64,000 bases of DNA, taken from NCBI RefSeq assembly GCF_009914755.1, contig NC_060925.1; one strand, given 5' to 3'. The stretch's first letter is position 1. Each line of letters begins with the position of its first letter. Positions 45,686 through 63,413 of this stretch are shown here, piece after piece. The position numbers were made by a program, and so were the translations under genes. Under the pieces are notes generated by a model. The model did no database searches. It was not told the origin of the DNA and was given only the letters and a program-made list of their open reading frames with translations. Origin of the DNA: the human T2T-CHM13v2.0 reference genome, Homo sapiens.

Positions 45686-45822
45686 GTAAGGTAAGAATTT
45701 CAGTTACTGACATCCCTCAGTCCTGATTAAACCTATTTGATTTCACCAGTTTTTAACCCATCATATGTTTGGGTTTCTTCTCCCCAGTCCCTGACTCCAC
45801 CTCTTCTGCCACAAACGTCAGC

Positions 45823-45997
45823 ATGGTGGTATCAGCCGGCCCTTGGTCCAGCGAGAAGGCAGAGATGAACATTCTAGAAATCAACGAGAAATTGCGCCCC
45901 CAGTTGGCAGAGAACAAACAGCAGTTCGTAAACCTCAAAGAGAGATGTTTTCTAACTCAACTGGCCGGCTTCCTGGCCAACCGACAGAAGAAATACA
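45823..45997 (+). CDS. NBPF: NBPF unit 1, first coding exon (exon 45788-45997, ATG at 45823)
   Basis: Acceptor ttctccccAG at 45787; [10 protein letters not shown]...NRQKKY; donor ACA|GTAAGA. Confidence 0.92.
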
Positions 45998-46544
45998 GTA
46001 AGATCTATAGGCTCACCGTCATGAAAGTGATGAATGATGTCCTGTCTTCTCTCTGAGACACTAAATGCTCTCTCCATCAAAAATAATTTCATCCTTCCTG
46101 TACTTCTAGGAAAACAGAAATGGGTATTTTAACATTTTGTTAAAGTTGGAAGACAGAGGTACCAAAGTATTTAGCAACTTTCCATGTTTGCAATCAGATG
46201 GGGGTGGGACTAGAGTTAAACTCACAGTTATTGATTTCTAACACAGGCACAGAACGACCTGTTTTCTCCAAGAGGCTCAATCATGTTTTCAAGAATCCTC
46301 TCTGTACCATATAAGATCCTGCAGACAAATAACATGTAGTCTGTTGTTCTAAATGTCTAGGACTAGTGAACTTTTATTCAGTTCAAGTTTCTGTTGAGGC
46401 CCAACAGGCAAAGCTCTGTTCTAGTGACTCTGAGGGGAACTTGGTGATAGTACCCAGTACCTGCTCTGAGGGGCTTCAAGAGGAGTCTGCTCCTAATAGA
46501 ACCTGTGCTATCTATAAGTGACAGCATCAAGAGCAGGGAGTAGG

Positions 46545-46871
46545 GGCCGTGCAACATGGCTCACTCCTGTAATCTCAGCACTTTGGGAGGCTGAGGCGGG
46601 CAGAGCACAAGGTCAGCAGTTTGAGACTAGCCTGGGCAACATGGAGAAACCCCATCTCCACTAAAAATACAAAAAGTAGATGGGCATCGTGGCGGGCAAC
46701 TGTAATCACCACTAATCGGGAGGCTGAGGCAGAAGAATCCTTTGAACCCAGCAGGCAGATGTTGCAGTGAGCCAAGATTGCACTATTGCACTCCAGCATG
46801 GGTGACAGGGCAAGACTCGTCAAAAAACAAACAAAACAAAAAGATAAATAAATCAAAAATAAAAATAAAAA
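46545..46871 (+). mobile_element. Alu in the first intron of each NBPF unit (copies at 52897-53223 and 59246-59565)
   Basis: Same insertion site in all three units. Confidence 0.88.
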
Positions 46872-47843
46872 GCAGAGAGTAGCTTGGTGAGAGTGAAGTC
46901 CTGCTTCCTGGTGCACAGGCTCTTGTTCCTAAAGAGGAAGAAAGATCACACCCGAGAATGTGTGGAAGCAGCAGTGCAGTGTGCAAAGCAGGGACCCTCA
47001 GCCTGTCTCCTGGGCTCCATCCAAGTTCCTTGTCTTGTCTGTCCCTCAGTTTCCTCATCTGTTCAGAGGGTACTACAATAATACCTACCTCTGTAAATTG
47101 CTGCAATGAATTACATGAGGCATTTCCTGTCAATCTCCTTGAACATTAATTGGCACAGTGTAAACACTATCTATTAGTTCTTCATTCTGATGTTTCTAAA
47201 TTAACACAAACTAATCTTATGCTGTTTCTAAATTAACACAACGAATCTAAATCTTAATGCTGCCTCTCATACTAATAAAGTATTTGGGCATATTTCCTTC
47301 ATGGCCTTATTGTCTTATGTCTCACACTTTATGCTTCAGATATGATTCTTAAAACCATATCTGAATATTGATTTAAAAATGAAATATTTTTAAAGTCCTT
47401 GACATATTTGTCCTTGAAATACCCAGTAAAAGGGAAACCATCAGTCCCATAGTCCTAGGGACCTTCCCGACTGTACAAGAAATCACTACTTCATGCCCCA
47501 GTGCAGTGTTTTAGAGGAGAGGCTGCAAGGCTTGGGAAAGTGGCCCCGCATTCAGAGTCAGACCTCAGGGGCTGTGAGTTCTGACTCCGCTTCGTTGTGG
47601 TTGAATCATCTTGTCAACTTCCTTGACGCGCCCTTGAGTTTCTCTTTCTTCGTCTTTAAATTTTGGAGGATCAGATGCCAGAAAGTCAGGAGACTGAAGA
47701 GTAAAGATGTGGAAATCCCTGTCTAGACCCTGGTACTGGGGAGAGTTTTGTCCTTGGGATGGACCTGGCTCCTGCCCTGTAGGCAGTGACCACAGCAGCA
47801 TGTCCAGCCTTCCACTGAGGCAGGCGTGTCTGTCTTTTCTCAG

Positions 47844-47946
47844 AGTATGAAGAGTGTAAAGACCTCATAAGATTTATGCTGAGGAATGAGCGACAGTTCA
47901 AGGAGGAGAAGCTTGCAGAGCAGCTCAAGCAAGCTGAGGAGCTCAG
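47844..47946 (+). CDS. NBPF: NBPF unit 1 coiled-coil exon (103 nt)
   Basis: ttttctcAG|AGTATGAAG; [35 protein letters not shown]; donor AG|GTGAGG. Confidence 0.92.
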
Positions 47947-48775
47947 GTGAGGGGAACCCGTAGGGGGAGGCAGGCGGGTAGGTGTGTAGATCTCTGAAGT
48001 ACAGCAGCTCGGCGGGGAGAAGTAAGAATGAAGCTGGGCCAGGGGAAGGGCAGAAATTGCCATGGCAGGCTCATGACACACAAATATTTATCAGAGAACA
48101 AGGATAATAATAAGTTCTGTGTTGCAGTTGTTTCTTAGAGCCTTGTTTTCTCTTTTTCAAACAAGTAATTGTTGAGGTGAAATTTACATAACACAAAATT
48201 CACCAAAGGAGTGGGAACCACCCAGCAGCATTCAGTATAATCAAAATGGTGTGCTATCGCCACCCCACTTACCCTTAGTGAGAATCACCTTCTGACTGAC
48301 TGCGTCTTCTCATTCTTTCACTCAATCAATGTTGCCTTCTTGACCCTGTCATTCTTTTCTTCTTTCATCTTTTCAATTCGCCCCATCTGCACCTGGCCTC
48401 ATTTCTGTACATGACTTTGTATCTAGTGGCCGCAAGATGCACTATGTGTATTTTCACATGGAAATGTCCATGGCCAGAGTGAGGAACTGAAAGGATGTCT
48501 TTGAAATGGAATTAGGAAGACACCTACTTTTGTTTACAGAAGAGAAAGATGAATGGAACATCATCGAGGATCTTGCAGGAGCCCTCTCTGATACAGGGAA
48601 AGCCTGTAGACCATTTTCTGTTCTTTCTCTTGGCCACAGACATTCCTTTCAACATGTGCTGACCTTCTGCTTGAAGGTCTCCTTGTGAACATTGTCTCAG
48701 AAATCTCTGTTGCAATATTTGAACGGATCACTCAACCCTTTCTACTCTTAAATTTTCTCTACCATCTCACCTTAG

Positions 48776-48990
48776 GCAATATAAAGTCCTGGTTCACTCT
48801 CAGGAACGAGAGCTGACGCAGTTAAAGGAGAAGTTACAGGAAGGGAGAGATGCCTCCCGCTCATTGAATGAGCATCTCCAGGCCCTCCTCACTCTGGATG
48901 AGCCGGACAAGTCCCAGGGGCAGGACCTCCAAGAACAGCTGGCTGAGGGGTGTAGACTGGCACAGCACCTTGTCCAAAAGCTCAGCCCAG
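48776..48990 (+). CDS. NBPF: NBPF unit 1 coiled-coil exon (215 nt)
   Basis: ccttAG|GCAATAT; [27 protein letters not shown]...LVQKLSP; donor CAG|GTAAGG. Confidence 0.92.
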
Positions 48991-50040
48991 GTAAGGTGGC
49001 CATAGGCCCTGATGACCCAAAACCCCAGGCTTATGAGAGGCTCCAGACCTCCATACTTTCACAATGACAGTTGTATCAGTGGGGTTTTTTTCTGCTACAC
49101 CTATGTGGCCATGACATGACCAGGACTTCCTGGGTAAGAACAGAGATGGGAAACCCATGGTTTGGAGGTCACAGTATTGCAAGTGTCCCTCCTTCCTTGA
49201 TGGAAGGTGGTCTTTGGAGCAAGAGGCAGCATCTATCTAGTTTTAAAGGACAAGAAGGAGGCTGTGATGGGAGGGCGCTTGTTGGAGTGAAAAGAGCTCT
49301 GGGCTAAGAATGAAGGTTCCCAGGCTGTCTTTTTGGCAATGTTCTTAGTAAGTGTCGGTGAGTGAGTGATTTATCTTTCCAGAGTTTCTCTCTCTCCATC
49401 TGCAAAGGCAGACAAATTGTCTCTTGCAAGGGTCTGAAGCATCCAAATATGGGAACACTTACGAATGCTTTTCAAAATGAGATGAAGCCCCTCTCCATGT
49501 GGTGTTGGAGAAGGCACTTGATGTGGGGGCATTTGGTGGTAGGAAGTGCTTCAGACTGGAGCACTCCCCATGGATAGAATGTCCCTGAATAACACAGCAG
49601 AAGCCACATGGAGGGCCTGTGCAGTCTCATGACGCATAGAGGACTGTGGGACAAGTTTGTCCTCTCCTAAGAGAAAGAATGAGGTTTGAAATGCGAACTG
49701 TGACAGGACACCAAGCCTGTTCCTGGGAATCAGATCTGTGGCAGGATGGGGGAGACAGCTGCCAAAGTCCAGAGAGAGGCTACACAAGCCTCCAGTGATA
49801 TGGGAAGCAAAAGGTCTTTTCAGTATTTGGCCACATCTTGATGGTGGCCCTCCACATCAGAAATGCATTGCCCGATGGACCAGGAAACCATGCCAGGGCA
49901 TTTTGTGAAAGATAAAACATGAGAGTTTTCAGTACAATGCTGAACCATACATAGATGTTCATGTCTCTGTGCACGTTGGGCTGACTGTGCTTGCAGAATG
50001 TGAAGTGGGAAATATCTGAACGAACATTTTGTATTTATAA

Positions 50041-50113
50041 AAAATGACGAAGATGAGGATGAAGATGTTCAAGTTGAGGAGGATGAGAAAGTGCAGAAAT
50101 CATCTGCCCCCAG
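50041..50113 (+). CDS. NBPF: NBPF unit 1 small Olduvai exon (73 nt) with mutated acceptor
   Basis: [25 protein letters not shown]; donor CAG|GTAACA intact, but the acceptor reads tttatAA where unit 3 has tttacAG. Confidence 0.75.
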
Positions 50114-50576
50114 GTAACACTGAATACTCAGGAGCAAGTAATGGGTGGTAACATATGAAAATGTCTAGGAGGCACACCCTCTCTGGCATCTATGGTGGAC
50201 CAAAAGCCCGCATCCCCTTGGCCACAGTATGTGAAATTGAACCCAGCTTAGACACAGGGTGCGGCAGCTGTCGTGTTTCTCTATGTGTGCCAAGTGTCAT
50301 GTCTGTACCATACAGGGATAGCTGAGTCTTCATCCTCCTCAGCTCCTATCTGTCCAGTGCACTGAATACCAGCTGCTCTCTTCCTCTCTGGCTCCCATGG
50401 CAGCCATGGTCTGTTGCAGAGAGAAGAGGATTGCCTGTTTCCTCTTTAAGGGAACCTCCATTTTGCTTTCTGGAACCACTCTCTTAATGCCACCTGTCAA
50501 AACCAGCTAGGACTCCCTGGGGTCCAATCCCTCTGTGTTTAATCTTCTGTCATCTCTGTCCCACCTGGCTCATCAG

Positions 50577-50788
50577 GGAGGTGCAGAAGGCTGAAGAGAG
50601 CAAAGTCCCTGAGGACTCACTGGAGGAATGTGCCATCACTTGTTCAAATAGCCACGGCCCTTGTGACTCCAACCAGCCTCACAAGAACATCAAAATCACA
50701 TTCGAGGAAGACGAAGTCAACTCAACTCTGGTTGTAGACAGAGAATCCTCTCATGATGAATGTCAGGATGCTCTAAACATTCTCTCAG
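50577..50788 (+). CDS. NBPF: NBPF unit 1 large Olduvai (CON1) exon (212 nt)
   Basis: catcAG|GGAGGTG; [70 protein letters not shown]; donor CAG|GTAGCC. Confidence 0.9.
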
Positions 50789-50902
50789 GTAGCCTCTATT
50801 TTCCTTGTGTCTCATACCTCTGTCTAGGCTATGGAAGATTAATTCTGAGGACAGGCTGTATATACACATATTGTTATTGTTTTAGTCAGAAACTAGGATG
50901 GA

Positions 50903-51825
<923 letters not shown>

Positions 51826-52139
51826 AAAATGAAATCTTTTGTGCTACACAGAAACATTGGCCACTCATGGGGTAAAAATCTCAGGGCCAAGCCTTGCTTT
51901 ATAGAAACTTATAAGCAAGAAAAGTGTAGAAGTGTTTATGTCCTGGTTTCAAGGTGACTGCATAGCTGAGACAAGTTGACTTAAAGGAGATCAAGACTGG
52001 AGATGACAAGAGTGAAACCAGGGAAACATCATCTTCAAATAAGTAAACAAGGCTGCCAGTGACATCCCTCAGTCCTGATTAAGCCTATTTGATTTCACCA
52101 GTTTTTAACCCATCATGTGTTTGCCTTTCTTCTCCCCAG

Positions 52140-52349
52140 TCCCTGGCCCCACCTCTTCTGCCACAAACGTCAGCATGGTGGTATCAGCCGGCCCTTTGTC
52201 CAGCGAGAAGGCAGAGATGAACATTCTAGAAATCAATGAGAAATTGCACCCCCAGCTGGCAGAGAAGAAACAGCAGTTCGTAAACCTCAAAGAGAAATGT
52301 TTTCTAACTCAACTGGCCGGCTTCCTGGCCAACCGACAGAAGAAATACA
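52140..52349 (+). CDS. NBPF: NBPF unit 2 exon 1 (210 nt, hybrid)
   Basis: [55 protein letters not shown]...; AG/GT intact; in phase with the preceding exon. Confidence 0.9.
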
Positions 52350-54195
52350 GTAAGATCTATAGGCTCACCGTCATGAAAGTGATGAATGATGTCCTGTCTT
52401 CTCTCTGAGACACTAAATGCTCTCTCCATCAAAAATAATTTCATCCTTCCTGTACTTCTAGGAAAACAGAAATGGGTATTTTAACATTTTGTTAAAGTTG
52501 GAAGACAGAGGTACCAAAGTATTTAGCAACTTTCCATGTTTGCAATCAGATGGGGGTGGGACTAGAGTTAAACTCACAGTTATTGATTTCTAACACAGGC
52601 ACAGAACGACCTGTTTTCTCCAAGAGGCTCAATCATGTTTTCAAGAATCCTCTCTGTACCATATAAGATCCTGCAGACAAATAACATGTAGTCTGTTGTT
52701 CTAAATGTCTAGGACTAGTGAACTTTTATTCAGTTCAAGTTTCTGTTGAGGCCCAACAGGCAAAGCTCTGTTCTAGTGACTCTGAGGGGAACTTGGTGAT
52801 AGTACCCAGTACCTGCTCTGAGGGGCTTCAAGAGGAGTCTGCTCCTAATAGAACCTGTGCTATCTATAAGTGACAGCATCAAGAGCAGGGAGTAGGGGCC
52901 GTGCAACATGGCTCACTCCTGTAATCTCAGCACTTTGGGAGGCTGAGGCGGGCAGAGCACAAGGTCAGCAGTTTGAGACTAGCCTGGGCAACATGGAGAA
53001 ACCCCATCTCCACTAAAAATACAAAAAGTAGATGGGCATCGTGGCGGGCAACTGTAATCACCACTAATCGGGAGGCTGAGGCAGAAGAATCCTTTGAACC
53101 CAGCAGGCAGATGTTGCAGTGAGCCAAGATTGCACTATTGCACTCCAGCATGGGTGACAGGGCAAGACTCGTCAAAAAACAAACAAAACAAAAAGATAAA
53201 TAAATCAAAAATAAAAATAAAAAGCAGAGAGTAGCTTGGTGAGAGTGAAGTCCTGCTTCCTGGTGCACAGGCTCTTGTTCCTAAAGAGGAAGAAAGATCA
53301 CACCCGAGAATGTGTGGAAGCAGCAGTGCAGTGTGCAAAGCAGGGACCCTCAGCCTGTCTCCTGGGCTCCATCCAAGTTCCTTGTCTTGTCTGTCCCTCA
53401 GTTTCCTCATCTGTTCAGAGGGTACTACAATAATACCTACCTCTGTAAATTGCTGCAATGAATTACATGAGGCATTTCCTGTCAATCTCCTTGAACATTA
53501 ATTGGCACAGTGTAAACACTATCTATTAGTTCTTCATTCTGATGTTTCTAAATTAACACAAACTAATCTTATGCTGTTTCTAAATTAACACAACGAATCT
53601 AAATCTTAATGCTGCCTCTCATACTAATAAAGTATTTGGGCATATTTCCTTCATGGCCTTATTGTCTTATGTCTCACACTTTATGCTTCAGATATGATTC
53701 TTAAAACCATATCTGAATATTGATTTAAAAATGAAATATTTTTAAAGTCCTTGACATATTTGTCCTTGAAATACCCAGTAAAAGGGAAACCATCAGTCCC
53801 ATAGTCCTAGGGACCTTCCCGACTGTACAAGAAATCACTACTTCATGCCCCAGTGCAGTGTTTTAGAGGAGAGGCTGCAAGGCTTGGGAAAGTGGCCCCG
53901 CATTCAGAGTCAGACCTCAGGGGCTGTGAGTTCTGACTCCGCTTCGTTGTGGTTGAATCATCTTGTCAACTTCCTTGACGCGCCCTTGAGTTTCTCTTTC
54001 TTCGTCTTTAAATTTTGGAGGATCAGATGCCAGAAAGTCAGGAGACTGAAGAGTAAAGATGTGGAAATCCCTGTCTAGACCCTGGTACTGGGGAGAGTTT
54101 TGTCCTTGGGATGGACCTGGCTCCTGCCCTGTAGGCAGTGACCACAGCAGCATGTCCAGCCTTCCACTGAGGCAGGCGTGTCTGTCTTTTCTCAG

Positions 54196-54298
54196 AGTAT
54201 GAAGAGTGTAAAGACCTCATAAGATTTATGCTGAGGAATGAGCGACAGTTCAAGGAGGAGAAGCTTGCAGAGCAGCTCAAGCAAGCTGAGGAGCTCAG
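54196..54298 (+). CDS. NBPF: NBPF unit 2 coiled-coil exon (103 nt)
   Basis: Copy of 47844-47946 at offset +6352. Confidence 0.9.
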
Positions 54299-55127
54299 GT
54301 GAGGGGAACCCGTAGGGGGAGGCAGGCGGGTAGGTGTGTAGATCTCTGAAGTACAGCAGCTCGGCGGGGAGAAGTAAGAATGAAGCTGGGCCAGGGGAAG
54401 GGCAGAAATTGCCATGGCAGGCTCATGACACACAAATATTTATCAGAGAACAAGGATAATAATAAGTTCTGTGTTGCAGTTGTTTCTTAGAGCCTTGTTT
54501 TCTCTTTTTCAAACAAGTAATTGTTGAGGTGAAATTTACATAACACAAAATTCACCAAAGGAGTGGGAACCACCCAGCAGCATTCAGTATAATCAAAATG
54601 GTGTGCTATCGCCACCCCACTTACCCTTAGTGAGAATCACCTTCTGACTGACTGCGTCTTCTCATTCTTTCACTCAATCAATGTTGCCTTCTTGACCCTG
54701 TCATTCTTTTCTTCTTTCATCTTTTCAATTCGCCCCATCTGCACCTGGCCTCATTTCTGTACATGACTTTGTATCTAGTGGCCGCAAGATGCACTATGTG
54801 TATTTTCACATGGAAATGTCCATGGCCAGAGTGAGGAACTGAAAGGATGTCTTTGAAATGGAATTAGGAAGACACCTACTTTTGTTTACAGAAGAGAAAG
54901 ATGAATGGAACATCATCGAGGATCTTGCAGGAGCCCTCTCTGATACAGGGAAAGCCTGTAGACCATTTTCTGTTCTTTCTCTTGGCCACAGACATTCCTT
55001 TCAACATGTGCTGACCTTCTGCTTGAAGGTCTCCTTGTGAACATTGTCTCAGAAATCTCTGTTGCAATATTTGAACGGATCACTCAACCCTTTCTACTCT
55101 TAAATTTTCTCTACCATCTCACCTTAG

Positions 55128-55342
55128 GCAATATAAAGTCCTGGTTCACTCTCAGGAACGAGAGCTGACGCAGTTAAAGGAGAAGTTACAGGAAGGGAGA
55201 GATGCCTCCCGCTCATTGAATGAGCATCTCCAGGCCCTCCTCACTCTGGATGAGCCGGACAAGTCCCAGGGGCAGGACCTCCAAGAACAGCTGGCTGAGG
55301 GGTGTAGACTGGCACAGCACCTTGTCCAAAAGCTCAGCCCAG
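55128..55342 (+). CDS. NBPF: NBPF unit 2 coiled-coil exon (215 nt)
   Basis: Copy of 48776-48990 at offset +6352. Confidence 0.9.
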
Positions 55343-56392
55343 GTAAGGTGGCCATAGGCCCTGATGACCCAAAACCCCAGGCTTATGAGAGGCTCCAGAC
55401 CTCCATACTTTCACAATGACAGTTGTATCAGTGGGGTTTTTTTCTGCTACACCTATGTGGCCATGACATGACCAGGACTTCCTGGGTAAGAACAGAGATG
55501 GGAAACCCATGGTTTGGAGGTCACAGTATTGCAAGTGTCCCTCCTTCCTTGATGGAAGGTGGTCTTTGGAGCAAGAGGCAGCATCTATCTAGTTTTAAAG
55601 GACAAGAAGGAGGCTGTGATGGGAGGGCGCTTGTTGGAGTGAAAAGAGCTCTGGGCTAAGAATGAAGGTTCCCAGGCTGTCTTTTTGGCAATGTTCTTAG
55701 TAAGTGTCGGTGAGTGAGTGATTTATCTTTCCAGAGTTTCTCTCTCTCCATCTGCAAAGGCAGACAAATTGTCTCTTGCAAGGGTCTGAAGCATCCAAAT
55801 ATGGGAACACTTACGAATGCTTTTCAAAATGAGATGAAGCCCCTCTCCATGTGGTGTTGGAGAAGGCACTTGATGTGGGGGCATTTGGTGGTAGGAAGTG
55901 CTTCAGACTGGAGCACTCCCCATGGATAGAATGTCCCTGAATAACACAGCAGAAGCCACATGGAGGGCCTGTGCAGTCTCATGACGCATAGAGGACTGTG
56001 GGACAAGTTTGTCCTCTCCTAAGAGAAAGAATGAGGTTTGAAATGCGAACTGTGACAGGACACCAAGCCTGTTCCTGGGAATCAGATCTGTGGCAGGATG
56101 GGGGAGACAGCTGCCAAAGTCCAGAGAGAGGCTACACAAGCCTCCAGTGATATGGGAAGCAAAAGGTCTTTTCAGTATTTGGCCACATCTTGATGGTGGC
56201 CCTCCACATCAGAAATGCATTGCCCGATGGACCAGGAAACCATGCCAGGGCATTTTGTGAAAGATAAAACATGAGAGTTTTCAGTACAATGCTGAACCAT
56301 ACATAGATGTTCATGTCTCTGTGCACGTTGGGCTGACTGTGCTTGCAGAATGTGAAGTGGGAAATATCTGAACGAACATTTTGTATTTATAA

Positions 56393-56465
56393 AAAATGAC
56401 GAAGATGAGGATGAAGATGTTCAAGTTGAGGAGGATGAGAAAGTGCAGAAATCATCTGCCCCCAG
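56393..56465 (+). CDS. NBPF: NBPF unit 2 small Olduvai exon (73 nt) with mutated acceptor
   Basis: Copy of 50041-50113, including the AG>AA acceptor change (position 56392). Confidence 0.75.
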
Positions 56466-56928
56466 GTAACACTGAATACTCAGGAGCAAGTAATGGGTGG
56501 TAACATATGAAAATGTCTAGGAGGCACACCCTCTCTGGCATCTATGGTGGACCAAAAGCCCGCATCCCCTTGGCCACAGTATGTGAAATTGAACCCAGCT
56601 TAGACACAGGGTGCGGCAGCTGTCGTGTTTCTCTATGTGTGCCAAGTGTCATGTCTGTACCATACAGGGATAGCTGAGTCTTCATCCTCCTCAGCTCCTA
56701 TCTGTCCAGTGCACTGAATACCAGCTGCTCTCTTCCTCTCTGGCTCCCATGGCAGCCATGGTCTGTTGCAGAGAGAAGAGGATTGCCTGTTTCCTCTTTA
56801 AGGGAACCTCCATTTTGCTTTCTGGAACCACTCTCTTAATGCCACCTGTCAAAACCAGCTAGGACTCCCTGGGGTCCAATCCCTCTGTGTTTAATCTTCT
56901 GTCATCTCTGTCCCACCTGGCTCATCAG

Positions 56929-57140
56929 GGAGGTGCAGAAGGCTGAAGAGAGCAAAGTCCCTGAGGACTCACTGGAGGAATGTGCCATCACTTGTTCAAA
57001 TAGCCACGGCCCTTGTGACTTCAACCAGCCTCACAAGAACATCAAAATCACATTTGAGGAAGACGAAGTCAACTCAACTCTGGTTGTAGACAGAGAATCC
57101 TCTCATGATGAATGTCAGGATGCTCTAAACATTCTCTCAG
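56929..57140 (+). CDS. NBPF: NBPF unit 2 large Olduvai (CON1) exon (212 nt)
   Basis: Copy of 50577-50788 with TCC>TTC (S>F, 57021) and a silent TTC>TTT (57055). Confidence 0.9.
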
Positions 57141-57606
57141 GTAGCCTCTATTTTCCTTGTGTCTCATACCTCTGTCTAGGCTATGGAAGATTAATTCTGA
57201 GGACAGGCTGTATATACACATATTGTTATTGTTTTAGTCAGAAACTAGGATGGAGCTAGGTGCTGTGACTCACACATATAATCACAGCACTTTGGAAGGC
57301 CCAAGTGGGACGATGACTTGAGTTCAGGAGTTGAAGACCAGCCTGGACAATATGGTGAAACCCATCTTTACAAAGAATACAAAAAATTAGGCAGGCATGG
57401 TGCTGCATGCCTATAGTCCCAACTGCTCAGGAGACTTAGGTGGGAGGATCGGCTGAGACGATCCTCCCACGCTCGTTCACTCCTCTCAGGCTAGACTCTC
57501 TCTCCTTTTCATTGGCTTGTCTTAGCTATTAATAAGAAGTCTCGGCCTGGCGCGGTGGCTCACACATGTAATCCGAGCACTTTGGGAGGCCGGGGCGGGT
57601 GGATCA

Positions 57607-57870
<264 letters not shown>

Positions 57871-58491
57871 TCACATCTTAATCCCAGCACTTTGGGAGGC
57901 TGAGGTGGGCAGAACACCTGAGGTCAGGAGTTCGAAACCAGCCTGTCCAAGATGGCGAAACCCCATCTCTACTAAAAATACAAAAATTAGCTGGCATGTT
58001 ACTTGGCGCTTGTAATCCCAGATGCTTGGCAGGCTGAGGGATGAGAATCGCTTGAACCCGGGCGGCAGAGGTGGCAGTGAGCTGAGATTGTGCCTCTGCA
58101 CTGCAGCCTGCACGACAGAGTGAGACTCCGTCTCAAACAAAAAACAAAAAACCAAAAAAGAAAAAAATTAAAAAAGCAAAATGAAATCTTTTGTGCTACA
58201 CAGAAACATTGGCCACTCATGGGGTAAAAATCTCAGGGCCAAGCCTTGCTTTATAGAAACTTATAAGCAAGAAAAGTGTAGAAGTGTTTATGTCCTGGTT
58301 TCAAGGTGACTGCATAGCTGAGACAAGTTGACTTAAAGGAGATCAAGACTGGAGATGACAAGAGTGAAACCAGGGAAACATCATCTTCAAATAAGTAAAC
58401 AAGGCTGCCAGTGACATCCCTCAGTCCTGATTAAGCCTATTTGATTTCACCAGTTTTTAACCCATCATGTGTTTGCCTTTCTTCTCCCCAG

Positions 58492-58701
58492 TCCCTGGCC
58501 CCACCTCTTCTGCCACAAACGTCAGCATGGTGGTATCAGCCGGCCCTTTGTCCAGCGAGAAGGCAGAGATGAACATTCTAGAAATCAATGAGAAATTGCA
58601 CCCCCAGCTGGCAGAGAAGAAACAGCAGTTCAGAAACCTCAAAGAGAAATGTTTTCTAACTCAACTGGCCGGCTTCCTGGCCAACCGACAGAACAAATAC
58701 A
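58492..58701 (+). CDS. NBPF: NBPF unit 3 exon 1 (210 nt)
   Basis: [22 protein letters not shown]...[28 protein letters not shown]; AG/GT intact. Confidence 0.9.
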
Positions 58702-61630: not shown

Positions 61631-62670
61631 GTAAGGTGGCCATAGGCCCTGATGACCCAAAATCCCAGGCTTATGAGAGACTCCAGACCTCCATACTTTC
61701 ACAATGACAGTTGTATCAATGGTGTTTTTTTCCACTAAGCTTATGTGGCCATGACATGACCAGGACTTCTTGGGTAAGAACGGAGATGGGAAACCCATGG
61801 GGTTGGAGGTCACAGTATTGCAAGTGTCCCTCCTCCCTTGATGGAAGGTGGTCTCTGGAGCAAGAGGCAGCATCTGTCTAGTTTTAAAGGACAGGAAGGA
61901 GGCTGCGATGGGAGCAGGCTTGTTAGAGTGAAAAGAGCTCTGGACTAAGAATGAAGGTTCCCAGGCTGTCTTTTCGGCAATGTTCTTAGTAACTGTCAGA
62001 GAGTGAATGACTTGTCCTTCCTGAGTTTCTCTCTCTCCGTGGCAGACAAATTGTCTCTTGCAAGGGTCGAAGCATTCAAATGTGGGAACACTTACAACTG
62101 CTTTCCAAAATGAGATGAAGGCCCTCGCCGTGTGATGTTGGAGAAGGCACTTTATGTGGGGGCGTTTTGTGGTAGGAAGTGCTTCAGACTGGAGCGCTCC
62201 CCATGGATAGAATGTCCCTGAAGAACACAGCAGAAGCCACTTGGAGGCTTGAAATCTTCTGATGCATAGAGGACTGTGGGACAAGTTTGTCTGCTTCTAA
62301 GAGAAAGAATTAGGTTTGAAATGCAAACCGTGACAGGACACCAAGCCTGTGCCTGGGAATCAGATCTGGCAGGATGGGGGAGACAGCTGCCAACGTCCAG
62401 AGAGAGGCTGCACAAGCCTCCAGTGATATGGGAAGCAAAAGGTCTTTTCAATATTTGGCCACATCTTGATGGTGGCCCTCCAGATCAGAAATGCATTGCC
62501 TGATGGATCAGGAAACCATGCCAGGGCATTCTGTTAAAGATAAAACATGAGAGTTTTCAGTTGAACGGTGACCCATGCCTAGATGTTCATGTCTCTGTTG
62601 CACATTGGGCTGACTGTGCTTGCAGACTGTGAAGTGGGAAATATCTGAACGAACACTTCTGTATTTACAG

Positions 62671-62743
62671 AAAATGACAACGATGACGATGAAGATGTTC
62701 AAGTTGAGGTGGCTGAGAAAGTGCAGAAATCGTCTGCCCCCAG
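62671..62743 (+). CDS. NBPF: NBPF unit 3 small Olduvai exon (73 nt)
   Basis: tttacAG|AAAATGACAAC; [25 protein letters not shown]; donor intact. Confidence 0.92.
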
Positions 62744-63207: not shown

Positions 63208-63413
63208 GGAGATGCAGAAGGCTGAAGAAAAGGAAGTCCCTGAGGACTCACTGGAGGAATGTGCCATCACTTATTCAAATAGCCATGGCCCTTATGACTC
63301 CAACCAGCCACATAGGAAAACCAAAATCACATTTGAGGAAGACAAAGTCGACTCAGCTCTCATTGGCTCATCCTCTCATGTTGAATGGGAGGATGCTGTA
63401 CACATTATTCCAG
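63208..63413 (+). CDS. NBPF: NBPF unit 3 large Olduvai (CON1-type) exon (206 nt)
   Basis: [68 protein letters not shown]; AG/GT intact. Confidence 0.92.

What the first reader, a model, noticed from the sequence alone, without database searches (positions are those of the whole stretch)
50030..50113. Splice acceptor of the small Olduvai exon is destroyed (AG>AA) in both duplicated NBPF units
Seen: unit 3 reads gtatttacAG|AAAATGAC (62670), while units 1 and 2 read gtatttatAA|AAAATGAC (50040, 56392). Every other coding splice site is intact and the frame is open. Inferred outcomes: (a) skipping the 73-nt exon shifts the frame to TAG at 50735; (b) the upstream ttgcAG at 49996 gives ECEVGNI* (TGA at 50017); (c) the next AG downstream, GAAG at 50052, is 12 nt in and rescues the frame, deleting only ENDE. 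Which AG is used decides whether this copy yields an NMD substrate, a ~170-220 aa coiled-coil-only protein, or a nearly full-length Olduvai protein. The duplication forces this choice twice in each transcript.
Basis: partly seen in the sequence, partly recalled or inferred. Interest (0 to 1): 0.8.

Follow-up and report, generated by a model that had tools for sequence, protein, structure and literature searches.

The report
NBPF8 Olduvai exon lost its acceptor
In the human gene NBPF8, one base change has removed the normal splice signal in front of a small Olduvai-domain exon, and a very recent internal duplication copied the defect, so the annotated protein is probably not what the cell makes.

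Summary
The introns before the 73-nt exons at 50041 and 56393 end in AA. The third unit, at 62671, keeps AG.

The AA is derived and specific to NBPF8. Of 36 paralogous copies in this assembly, 34 have AG and only the two window copies have AA.

The two AA units are copies of a 6,352-bp tandem duplication. They differ at 2 bases, one private change per copy, so one mutation was duplicated.

Five Olduvai exons further downstream are open.

My best guess, inferred and not shown, is that the first AG downstream (+12) is used. This loses only ENDE. Some transcripts would skip the exon and be degraded by nonsense-mediated decay (NMD). No transcript data could be examined.

I found no dsRNA to support rescue by RNA editing. 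This is an ordinary kind of event, mainly of interest for annotation.

The parts
50039..50040 (+). AA where the 3' splice-site AG should be, unit 1 (last two intron bases)
   Evidence: the homologous position is AG in 34 of 34 other paralog copies
56391..56392 (+). the same AA in unit 2, the duplicated copy
   Evidence: the surrounding 231 nt are identical to unit 1
62669..62670 (+). intact acceptor AG of the older unit 3
50041..50113 (+). 73-nt short exon of an Olduvai doublet, unit 1. It is 68% purine and has 8 GAR triplets. The unit 2 copy is at 56393-56465 and the unit 3 copy at 62671-62743.
   Evidence: hub annotation
50577..50788 (+). 212-nt long exon of the doublet. It matches Pfam Olduvai PF06758 at profile positions 18-68. 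The unit 2 copy is at 56929-57140 and the unit 3 copy at 63208-63413.
   Evidence: E 3.4e-18; unit 3 E 6.8e-23
50051..50052 (+). first AG downstream of the dead acceptor (cgAAG|A). A new exon start at 50053 is in frame and loses ENDE. The unit 2 equivalent is 56403-56404.
49995..49996 (+). upstream AG (ttgcAG), 12 nt after a CTGAC branch-like motif. Using it reads into the TGA at 50017-50019. A second AG lies at 50004-50005 in the same frame.
50016..50020 (+). CTGAA branch-point-like motif with its A at 50019. It lies 21 nt before 50040 and 33 nt before 50052. No AG lies between 50006 and 50050.
   Evidence: this is a motif match only, not a mapped branch point
50735..50737 (+). TAG reached when only the 73-nt exon is skipped
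45945..58648 (+). two copies of a 6,352-bp head-to-tail duplication, about 45945-52296 and 52297-58648. They differ at 2 bases: 50669 versus 57021 and 50703 versus 57055.
   Evidence: the edges are approximate and inferred from where mismatches resume
48776..48990 (+). upstream 215-nt coiled-coil exon. Its GT donor at 48991 must find an acceptor. The unit 2 copy is at 55128-55342.

Best explanation
Shown: a single G>A transition hit the last intron base (-1) of the acceptor in front of the short exon of an Olduvai exon doublet. It happened on the NBPF8 lineage. A young 6,352-bp head-to-tail duplication then copied the mutated unit, so the gene now carries the defect twice. The duplication's breakpoints lie in older homologous segments, which fits unequal recombination. 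The RefSeq models keep the exon boundary by homology, and this gives two GT-AA introns.

Inferred: the annotated junctions 48990^50041 and 55342^56393 are not used to any useful extent. The spliceosome still assembles on the same branch region (near 50019) and the same short, interrupted pyrimidine tract. It takes the first AG downstream, at 50051-50052, helped by the purine-rich Asp/Glu-codon enhancer that fills the exon. The product is in frame and lacks only ENDE, which lies outside the Pfam Olduvai model. A substantial share of transcripts instead skips the 73-nt exon. That causes a frameshift, a TAG at 50735 and nonsense-mediated decay. Other transcripts skip the whole doublet or a whole unit, which stays in frame.

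My odds are as follows. The lesion is real and derived: over 0.9. The +12 AG is the main route that includes the exon: about 0.5.
For: - AA at both sites, with all other sites canonical.
- 34 of 36 paralog copies have AG; the 2 AA copies are both in NBPF8.
- The closest paralog L004 matches the 51 nt shown around the site except for this G.
- Only 2 differences between the copies across about 6.3 kb. Each copy carries one private derived base that none of 27 aligned paralogs has.
- Twin units in other paralogs are only 96.5-98.6% alike.
- No AG from 50006 to 50050. The first AG downstream is AAG|A at +12 and is in frame. The next is GAG at +17..
- After mutation of the authentic AG, cryptic 3' splice sites lie mostly in the exon, with a peak at +8, and tend to keep the authentic branch site and pyrimidine tract: PMC1636351, sections 9 and 13 read.
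- First exons of CON-type doublets carry their splice-enhancing activity next to the 3' splice site: PMC9313022 part 1 read; PMC9177970 passage.
- Five further Olduvai long exons downstream are open.
Against: - No RNA evidence of any kind was available here.
- The +12 site is weak by its own sequence. It has A at -3 and only 6 of 16 pyrimidines at -20 to -5.
- The authentic pyrimidine tract is short and interrupted. I count 10 of 16 pyrimidines in unit 1 by eye; one search gives 10 of 16 for unit 3. Such introns often need the adjacent AG for the first step of splicing, which favours skipping.
- MaxEntScan and SpliceAI could not be run.
- NBPF8 is reported as a target of nonsense-mediated decay. 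So are NBPF9, 11, 12 and 15, and the authors attribute this mostly to uORFs (bioRxiv 10.1101/2024.03.04.583328, passage). That report therefore neither supports nor contradicts this reading.
- RefSeq curators kept the 50041 and 56393 boundaries.
Confidence: 0.5

Rival explanations
1. The lesion is real, but skipping is the main outcome. The 73-nt exon is left out, the frame shifts, and the message is degraded. NBPF8 on this haplotype would then be a transcribed pseudogene, or it would yield only minor in-frame forms that skip a doublet or a unit and lack CON1.
For: - Skipping gives a TAG at 50735-50737, far upstream of many later exon junctions.
- The pyrimidine tract is weak and the +12 site is weak.
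- NBPF8 is listed among high-confidence targets of nonsense-mediated decay (bioRxiv 10.1101/2024.03.04.583328, passage).
- NBPF8 is shown as an example of an unproductive 'toxic junction' (bioRxiv 10.1101/2025.06.15.659434, figure legend only; the junction is not named and the supplements are closed).
- Splice-site mutations often also remove neighbouring exons (PMC9313022, part 1).
Against: - All other splice sites and frames are intact, including 5 downstream Olduvai exons. At about 2% divergence from paralogs this is weak evidence.
- The exon carries a strong purine-rich enhancer next to the site (PMC9177970 passage).
- The decay signal is shared with paralogs whose AG is intact.
Confidence: 0.3
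2. The upstream AG at 49995-49996, or the one at 50004-50005, takes over, using the CTGAC branch motif at 49984. This adds 44 or 35 nt and stops at the TGA at 50017. The result is a coiled-coil-only product of about 171 aa, or a decay substrate.
For: CTGAC is the best branch-site match in the last 90 nt, and C lies at -3 of the 49996 AG. The frame consequence was verified.
Against: - The same motif and AG are present in unit 3, where the annotated acceptor is the downstream one.
- The AG lies only 12 nt from the branch A.
- Cryptic sites upstream of the authentic one are depleted (PMC1636351, section 13).
Confidence: 0.07
3. The AA acceptor still works. Either it acts as a rare non-canonical GT-AA site, or A-to-I editing turns AA into AI, which is read as AG, as in ADARB1, NRK, HOOK3 and COG8. 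The annotated protein would then be made.
For: A handful of human GT-AA introns exist, and some are rescued by editing (PMC4176328, passages). RefSeq keeps the boundary.
Against: - There is no double-stranded structure around the site. A 200-nt fold has z +0.69, and 142 of 200 shuffles fold at least as well.
- The only complement to the site within 48700-52400 is 18 nt at 83%, AT-rich, and 1.26 kb away.
- The site is not in a masked repeat (hub table).
- The donor gtaaggtg is U2-type, not U12-type.
Confidence: 0.05
4. The A at 50040 and 56392 is an assembly or polishing error, or the tandem duplicate is a false duplication.
For: The base sits at the edge of a run of A. The two copies are almost identical, which makes polishing harder.
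Against: - The difference is a substitution, not a length error, and it is the same in both copies.
- Each copy carries its own private base, so they were resolved as separate sequences.
- The Ensembl GRCh38 span given for NBPF8 in a table of PMC13028154 is 54,642 bp. That equals 24334-78975 here exactly. An independent assembly therefore has the same length, with room for both units.
Confidence: 0.03

Closest known systems
Cryptic 3' splice-site activation after mutation of the authentic AG (the cases collected in DBASS3; PMC1636351)
   Same: A G>A transition at intron position -1 is the commonest class in that collection. Here an exonic AG lies a few bases downstream that could reuse the same branch site and pyrimidine tract. 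It is at +12, and the collection's peak is at +8.
   Different: Those are disease alleles with RNA evidence. This is a paralog-specific base in a reference assembly with no RNA evidence examined, and it is present twice in one gene.
Editing-dependent GT-AA introns (ADARB1 self-editing; NRK, HOOK3, COG8; PMC4176328)
   Same: The intron ends in AA, and one A-to-I change would restore an AG-like signal.
   Different: No double-stranded structure was found at the site. There is no evidence of editing.
Olduvai (DUF1220, NBPF) exon doublets of NBPF genes
   Same: The arrangement is a short acidic exon followed by a long exon that matches Pfam PF06758. It sits behind coiled-coil exons and is repeated within the gene (PMC9313022).
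   Different: In this gene the short exon of two of the three N-terminal doublets lacks its acceptor. All 34 other copies in the assembly keep it.
Splice annotation errors in NBPF genes caused by repeats (EASTR, PMC10632439, NBPF20 example)
   Same: A reference transcript in a repetitive NBPF gene has exon boundaries set by alignment, not by splice signals. The selected transcript jumps across one of two near-identical units.
   Different: The EASTR cases are false introns between repeat copies. Here the boundary is homologous to a true one but its signal is mutated.

Membership tests
Olduvai (PF06758) exon doublet of an NBPF gene | The long exon matches the Pfam Olduvai profile above its gathering score | tested here: met
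   50578-50787 scores 65.9 bits (cut-off 23), profile 18-68 of 68. Unit 3 scores 81 bits.
Olduvai (PF06758) exon doublet of an NBPF gene | A short first exon followed by a long second exon, repeated within the gene | tested here: met
   Hub exon table: 73+212, 73+212 and 73+206 nt. The long exon starts at profile position 18, so the first 17 positions must come from the short exon. The 23-aa short-exon peptide alone gave no Pfam hit.
Olduvai (PF06758) exon doublet of an NBPF gene | Assignment to the CON1 clade | not tested
   The CON1 label rests on the doublet's N-terminal position and on my recall of the clade scheme. No clade tree was built.
U2-type GT-AG intron | The intron ends in AG | tested here: not met
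   AA at 50039-50040 and 56391-56392. The feature is met in unit 3.
U2-type GT-AG intron | GT donor with a U2-type consensus | tested here: met
   CAG|gtaaggtg at 48990/48991 and 55342/55343.
U12-type intron (can tolerate odd terminal bases) | Donor of the RTATCCTT type and a TCCTTAAC-like branch site | tested here: not met
   The donor is gtaaggtg. By eye, there is no CCTT in 49950-50040. The consensus motifs are recalled.
Editing-dependent AA acceptor | The target adenosine lies in a stable double-stranded RNA | tested here: not met
   z +0.69; only an 18-nt, 83% AT-rich complement 1.26 kb away.
Editing-dependent AA acceptor | A>G mismatch at the site in RNA reads | not testable with these tools
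   No RNA data are held.
Cryptic 3' splice-site activation | The authentic AG is mutated, and an AG lies nearby in the exon within reach of the same branch site | tested here: met
   the first AG is at +12, 33 nt from the branch-like A at 50019, with no AG in between.
Cryptic 3' splice-site activation | The cryptic junction is seen in transcripts | not testable with these tools
   No RNA data are held.
Recent intragenic tandem duplication by unequal recombination | Head-to-tail copies that are nearly identical, with edges in older homologous segments | tested here: met
   period 6,352 nt, no gaps, and 2 mismatches between 45945 and 52279. Flanking homology falls to about 95% and then about 92%.

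The most novel reading that the evidence does not exclude
Inclusion of the two CON1 Olduvai doublets of NBPF8 has become conditional. The AA acceptors would be used only when the -1 adenosine is edited to inosine, or under some other non-canonical condition. Tissue levels of editing would then set, twice per transcript, whether NBPF8 makes an eight-domain Olduvai protein or a decay substrate.
Probability: 0.04. Interest if true: 0.65.

Novelty: new member of a known kind. Interest (0 to 1): 0.3.

Why it matters
The RefSeq-selected model of NBPF8 and the predicted models contain one or two GT-AA introns. The annotated protein may therefore be wrong by four residues, may lack its first Olduvai domains, or may not be made at all.

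Olduvai copy number is widely correlated with brain traits, so it matters which copies can be expressed. The NBPF8 locus also varies in structure between people (bioRxiv 10.1101/2024.09.24.614721, passages). The lesion and the duplication may therefore be polymorphic.

The pair of identical mutated units is a small natural test of how a 3' splice site is chosen. The event itself, one acceptor mutation in one member of a large and partly pseudogenised family, is ordinary.

Tried and rejected
- (Pfam) failed because I gave a wrong frame. I corrected it.
- One search was a script bug, fixed.
- One search was a term-format error. I read sections of the paper instead.
- Editing rescue: I looked for double-stranded structure and found none.
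- U12-type intron: rejected on the donor sequence.
- Gene conversion from a paralog as the source of the two differences between copies: rejected. Neither private base occurs in any of the 27 aligned paralogs.
- Literature: a search for 'NBPF8' found 78 papers, of which 25 were listed. I read passages of 5 of them.
- A search for 'NBPF8' + 'splice' + 'acceptor' found 6 papers, of which 5 were listed. I read passages of 2 of them.
- A search for NBPF/Olduvai/splice site/exon doublet found 11 papers. I read part or passages of 3 more of them.
- None of the text I read mentions this acceptor. Subscription journals, database records (dbSNP, RefSeq notes) and bioRxiv supplements were not visible.
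- MaxEntScan and SpliceAI scores could not be computed because no model files were available.
- I did not check the splice sites of exons beyond the window, only that five long Olduvai exons there are open.

Full report
**Observation.**
- In unit 1 the intron ends ...tgtatttatAA (AA at 50039-50040) and the exon starts at 50041.
- Unit 2 is identical over the 231 nt shown, with AA at 56391-56392 and the exon at 56393.
- Unit 3 ends ...tgtatttacAG (62669-62670), with the exon at 62671.

One search listed all 15 annotated exons between 45532 and 63413. 13 of 15 acceptors are AG, and the two exceptions are these sites. 15 of 15 donors are GT.

One search translated the models.
- The full model with both units is open throughout the window.
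- Skipping the 73-nt exon gives a TAG at 50735-50737 after 217 aa.
- Using the AG at 49995-49996 gives ...SPECEVGNI* with a TGA at 50017-50019 after 171 aa.
- Using the AG at 50051-50052 removes 12 nt (ENDE) and leaves no stop.

**What the exons are.** The 212-nt exon matches Pfam Olduvai (PF06758) at E 3.4e-18, covering profile positions 18-68 of 68. The unit 3 long exon matches at E 6.8e-23. Because the long exon begins at profile position 18, the first 17 positions of the domain must come from the end of the short exon. The four residues lost by the +12 route (ENDE) are the first residues of the short exon and so lie outside the Pfam model. This last point is inferred. The 23-residue short-exon peptide alone gave no hit. 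The short-plus-long doublet arrangement is the published one (PMC9313022, part 1 read). Calling these doublets CON1 rests on their position and on my recall; I built no clade tree.

**Derived state.** The assembly holding the window could be searched. A 231-nt query around the site found 36 copies. I read the homologous acceptor in all of them: 30 and 6. 34 of 36 have AG. The 2 with AA are the window's own units 1 and 2.

The nearest paralogs, L003 and L004, are 97.6-97.8% identical to NBPF8 over 3.2 kb. In the 51 nt shown, L004 differs from NBPF8 only at this G.

An earlier C>T change at -3 (CAG to TAG) is shared by NBPF8 and six other copies: L003-L007 and L010. The order of events on this lineage was therefore CAG, then TAG, then TAA.

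**The duplication.**
- Units 1 and 2 lie 6,352 nt apart without gaps.
- 45708-52100 against 52060-58452 is 99.78% identical, with 14 mismatches. Between 45945 and 52279 there are only 2 mismatches, at 50669 and 50703.
- Outside this core the identity falls to that of the older repeat. Unit 3 is about 92% identical to unit 1.
- The edges therefore sit in older homologous segments, which fits unequal recombination. This is inferred.
- At the two differing sites the other paralogs read C in 26 of 27 (G in 1) and T in 27 of 27. Unit 1 reads C and C, and unit 2 reads T and T. Each copy thus has one private derived base found in none of the 27.
- The acceptor mutation therefore predates the duplication and is one event, not two.
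- With a recalled rate of about 0.5e-9 per site per year, one change per 6.3 kb per copy suggests an age of a few hundred thousand years. The uncertainty is wide.
- Twin units in other paralogs are much older, at 96.5-98.6% identity.
- The Ensembl GRCh38 span printed for NBPF8 in a table of PMC13028154 is 54,642 bp. This equals 24334-78975 here exactly. GRCh38 therefore very probably has both units too. Whether it has A at the site I could not see.

**Rest of the gene.** I fetched the 15.2 kb beyond the window. Five further stop-free stretches there match Olduvai at E 1.8e-22 to 4.3e-20. I did not check their splice sites. The two dead acceptors thus stand in front of six apparently intact domains, counting unit 3.

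**Routes open to the spliceosome.**
- No AG lies between 50006 and 50050.
- A branch-like CTGAA has its A at 50019, 21 nt before the old acceptor and 33 nt before the next AG.
- That next AG, at 50051-50052, is AAG|A at +12 and is in frame.
- The following one, at 50057, is GAG at +17 and shifts the frame.
- The one at 50064 is AAG at +24 and is in frame.
- The pyrimidine tract is short and interrupted. I count 10 of 16 pyrimidines by eye; one search gives 10 of 16 for unit 3.
- Upstream, CTGAC (A at 49984) is followed by AGs at 49996 and 50005. Both read into the TGA at 50017.
Skipping the whole doublet (73+212 = 285 nt) is in frame and has no stop. Skipping both doublets leaves an open 609-aa reading frame in the window.
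- The repeat unit is 813 nt, also a multiple of three. The RefSeq-selected transcript already joins 48990 to 56393 (hub table).

**Which route is likeliest.** This is inference from published regularities.
- After mutation of the authentic AG, activated cryptic sites lie mostly in the exon, with a peak 8 nt downstream, and seem to keep the authentic branch site and pyrimidine tract (PMC1636351, sections 9 and 13).
- Aberrant sites have more purines at -3 (same paper, abstract).
- The first exons of CON-type doublets carry their enhancer activity next to the 3' splice site, in the run of Asp and Glu codons (PMC9313022 part 1; PMC9177970 passage). Here the exon is 68% purine with 8 GAR triplets.
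- I therefore put about 0.5 on the +12 AG being the main route that includes the exon, and about 0.3 on skipping with decay being dominant. I put 0.07 on the upstream AG, 0.05 on the AA being used or edited, and 0.03 on an assembly error.
- The weak tract and the weak +12 context (6 of 16 pyrimidines, A at -3) count against my first choice.

**Evidence that does not discriminate.** NBPF8 is named among high-confidence decay targets after UPF1 depletion. NBPF9, 11, 12 and 15 are named with it, and the authors ascribe this mostly to uORF translation (bioRxiv 10.1101/2024.03.04.583328, one passage). A preprint shows NBPF8 as an example of an unproductive junction without naming the junction (bioRxiv 10.1101/2025.06.15.659434, one legend). 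The supplements of both are closed and might bear on this question.

**Editing rescue.** Human GT-AA introns rescued by A-to-I editing are documented for ADARB1, NRK, HOOK3 and COG8 (PMC4176328, passages). Here a 200-nt fold around the site is no more stable than shuffles (z +0.69; 142 of 200 shuffles fold at least as well). The only complement to the site within 48700-52400 is 18 nt at 83%, AT-rich, and 1.26 kb away. I rate this reading unlikely but not excluded.

**Comparison with what is known, and novelty.** The event belongs to a well-known class: a -1 G>A acceptor mutation with a possible cryptic rescue. It sits in a gene family known for annotation trouble (PMC10632439, passages) and in a locus that varies in structure between people (bioRxiv 10.1101/2024.09.24.614721, passages). 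My searches and the passages I read do not mention this acceptor. Databases and subscription papers were out of reach. I file it as a new member of a known kind, of modest interest, chiefly for annotation and for counting expressible Olduvai domains.

Noticed in passing
window 50669/57021 and 50703/57055: The only two differences between the 6.3-kb twin units both lie in the 212-nt Olduvai exon, 34 nt apart. There are none in about 5.5 kb of intron. One is Ser (unit 1) versus Phe (unit 2). The other is synonymous and creates a CpG in unit 1. Neither private base is seen in 27 aligned paralogs. By my arithmetic the chance that both fall in this one exon is about 0.001. I have no explanation.
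   Followed up: partly
window 50052-50086 and 50327-50344: The purine-rich part of the 73-nt exon is complementary to a pyrimidine-rich stretch 240-260 nt into the next intron (15 nt at 93% and 14 nt at 93%). It could pair in the pre-mRNA, or it could be chance.
   Followed up: no
window 48990 to 56393 (RefSeq-selected transcript): The selected transcript takes its first exons from unit 1 and the rest from unit 2, jumping over one 813-nt unit. Because the units differ at only 2 exonic bases, such a transcript cannot be placed on one unit by alignment alone (hub table).
   Followed up: partly
window 24334-78975 versus the GRCh38 span in PMC13028154: The gene span from the selected start to the end is 54,642 bp here. 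The Ensembl GRCh38 coordinates give exactly 54,642 bp as well. The two assemblies have no net length difference across the gene.
   Followed up: partly
L003-L007 and L010, and window 50038 and 56390: The -3 base of this acceptor is T (TAG) in NBPF8 and six other copies. It is C (CAG) in the other 28 copies read. This is an earlier, shared change of the site.
   Followed up: no
L008/L009, L012/L013 and L006/L010 (other places on the same chromosome): Three other paralogs also carry two unit-1-type copies plus one unit-3-type copy. Their twins are 96.5-98.6% alike, so the same kind of unit duplication happened earlier and independently elsewhere in the family.
   Followed up: partly
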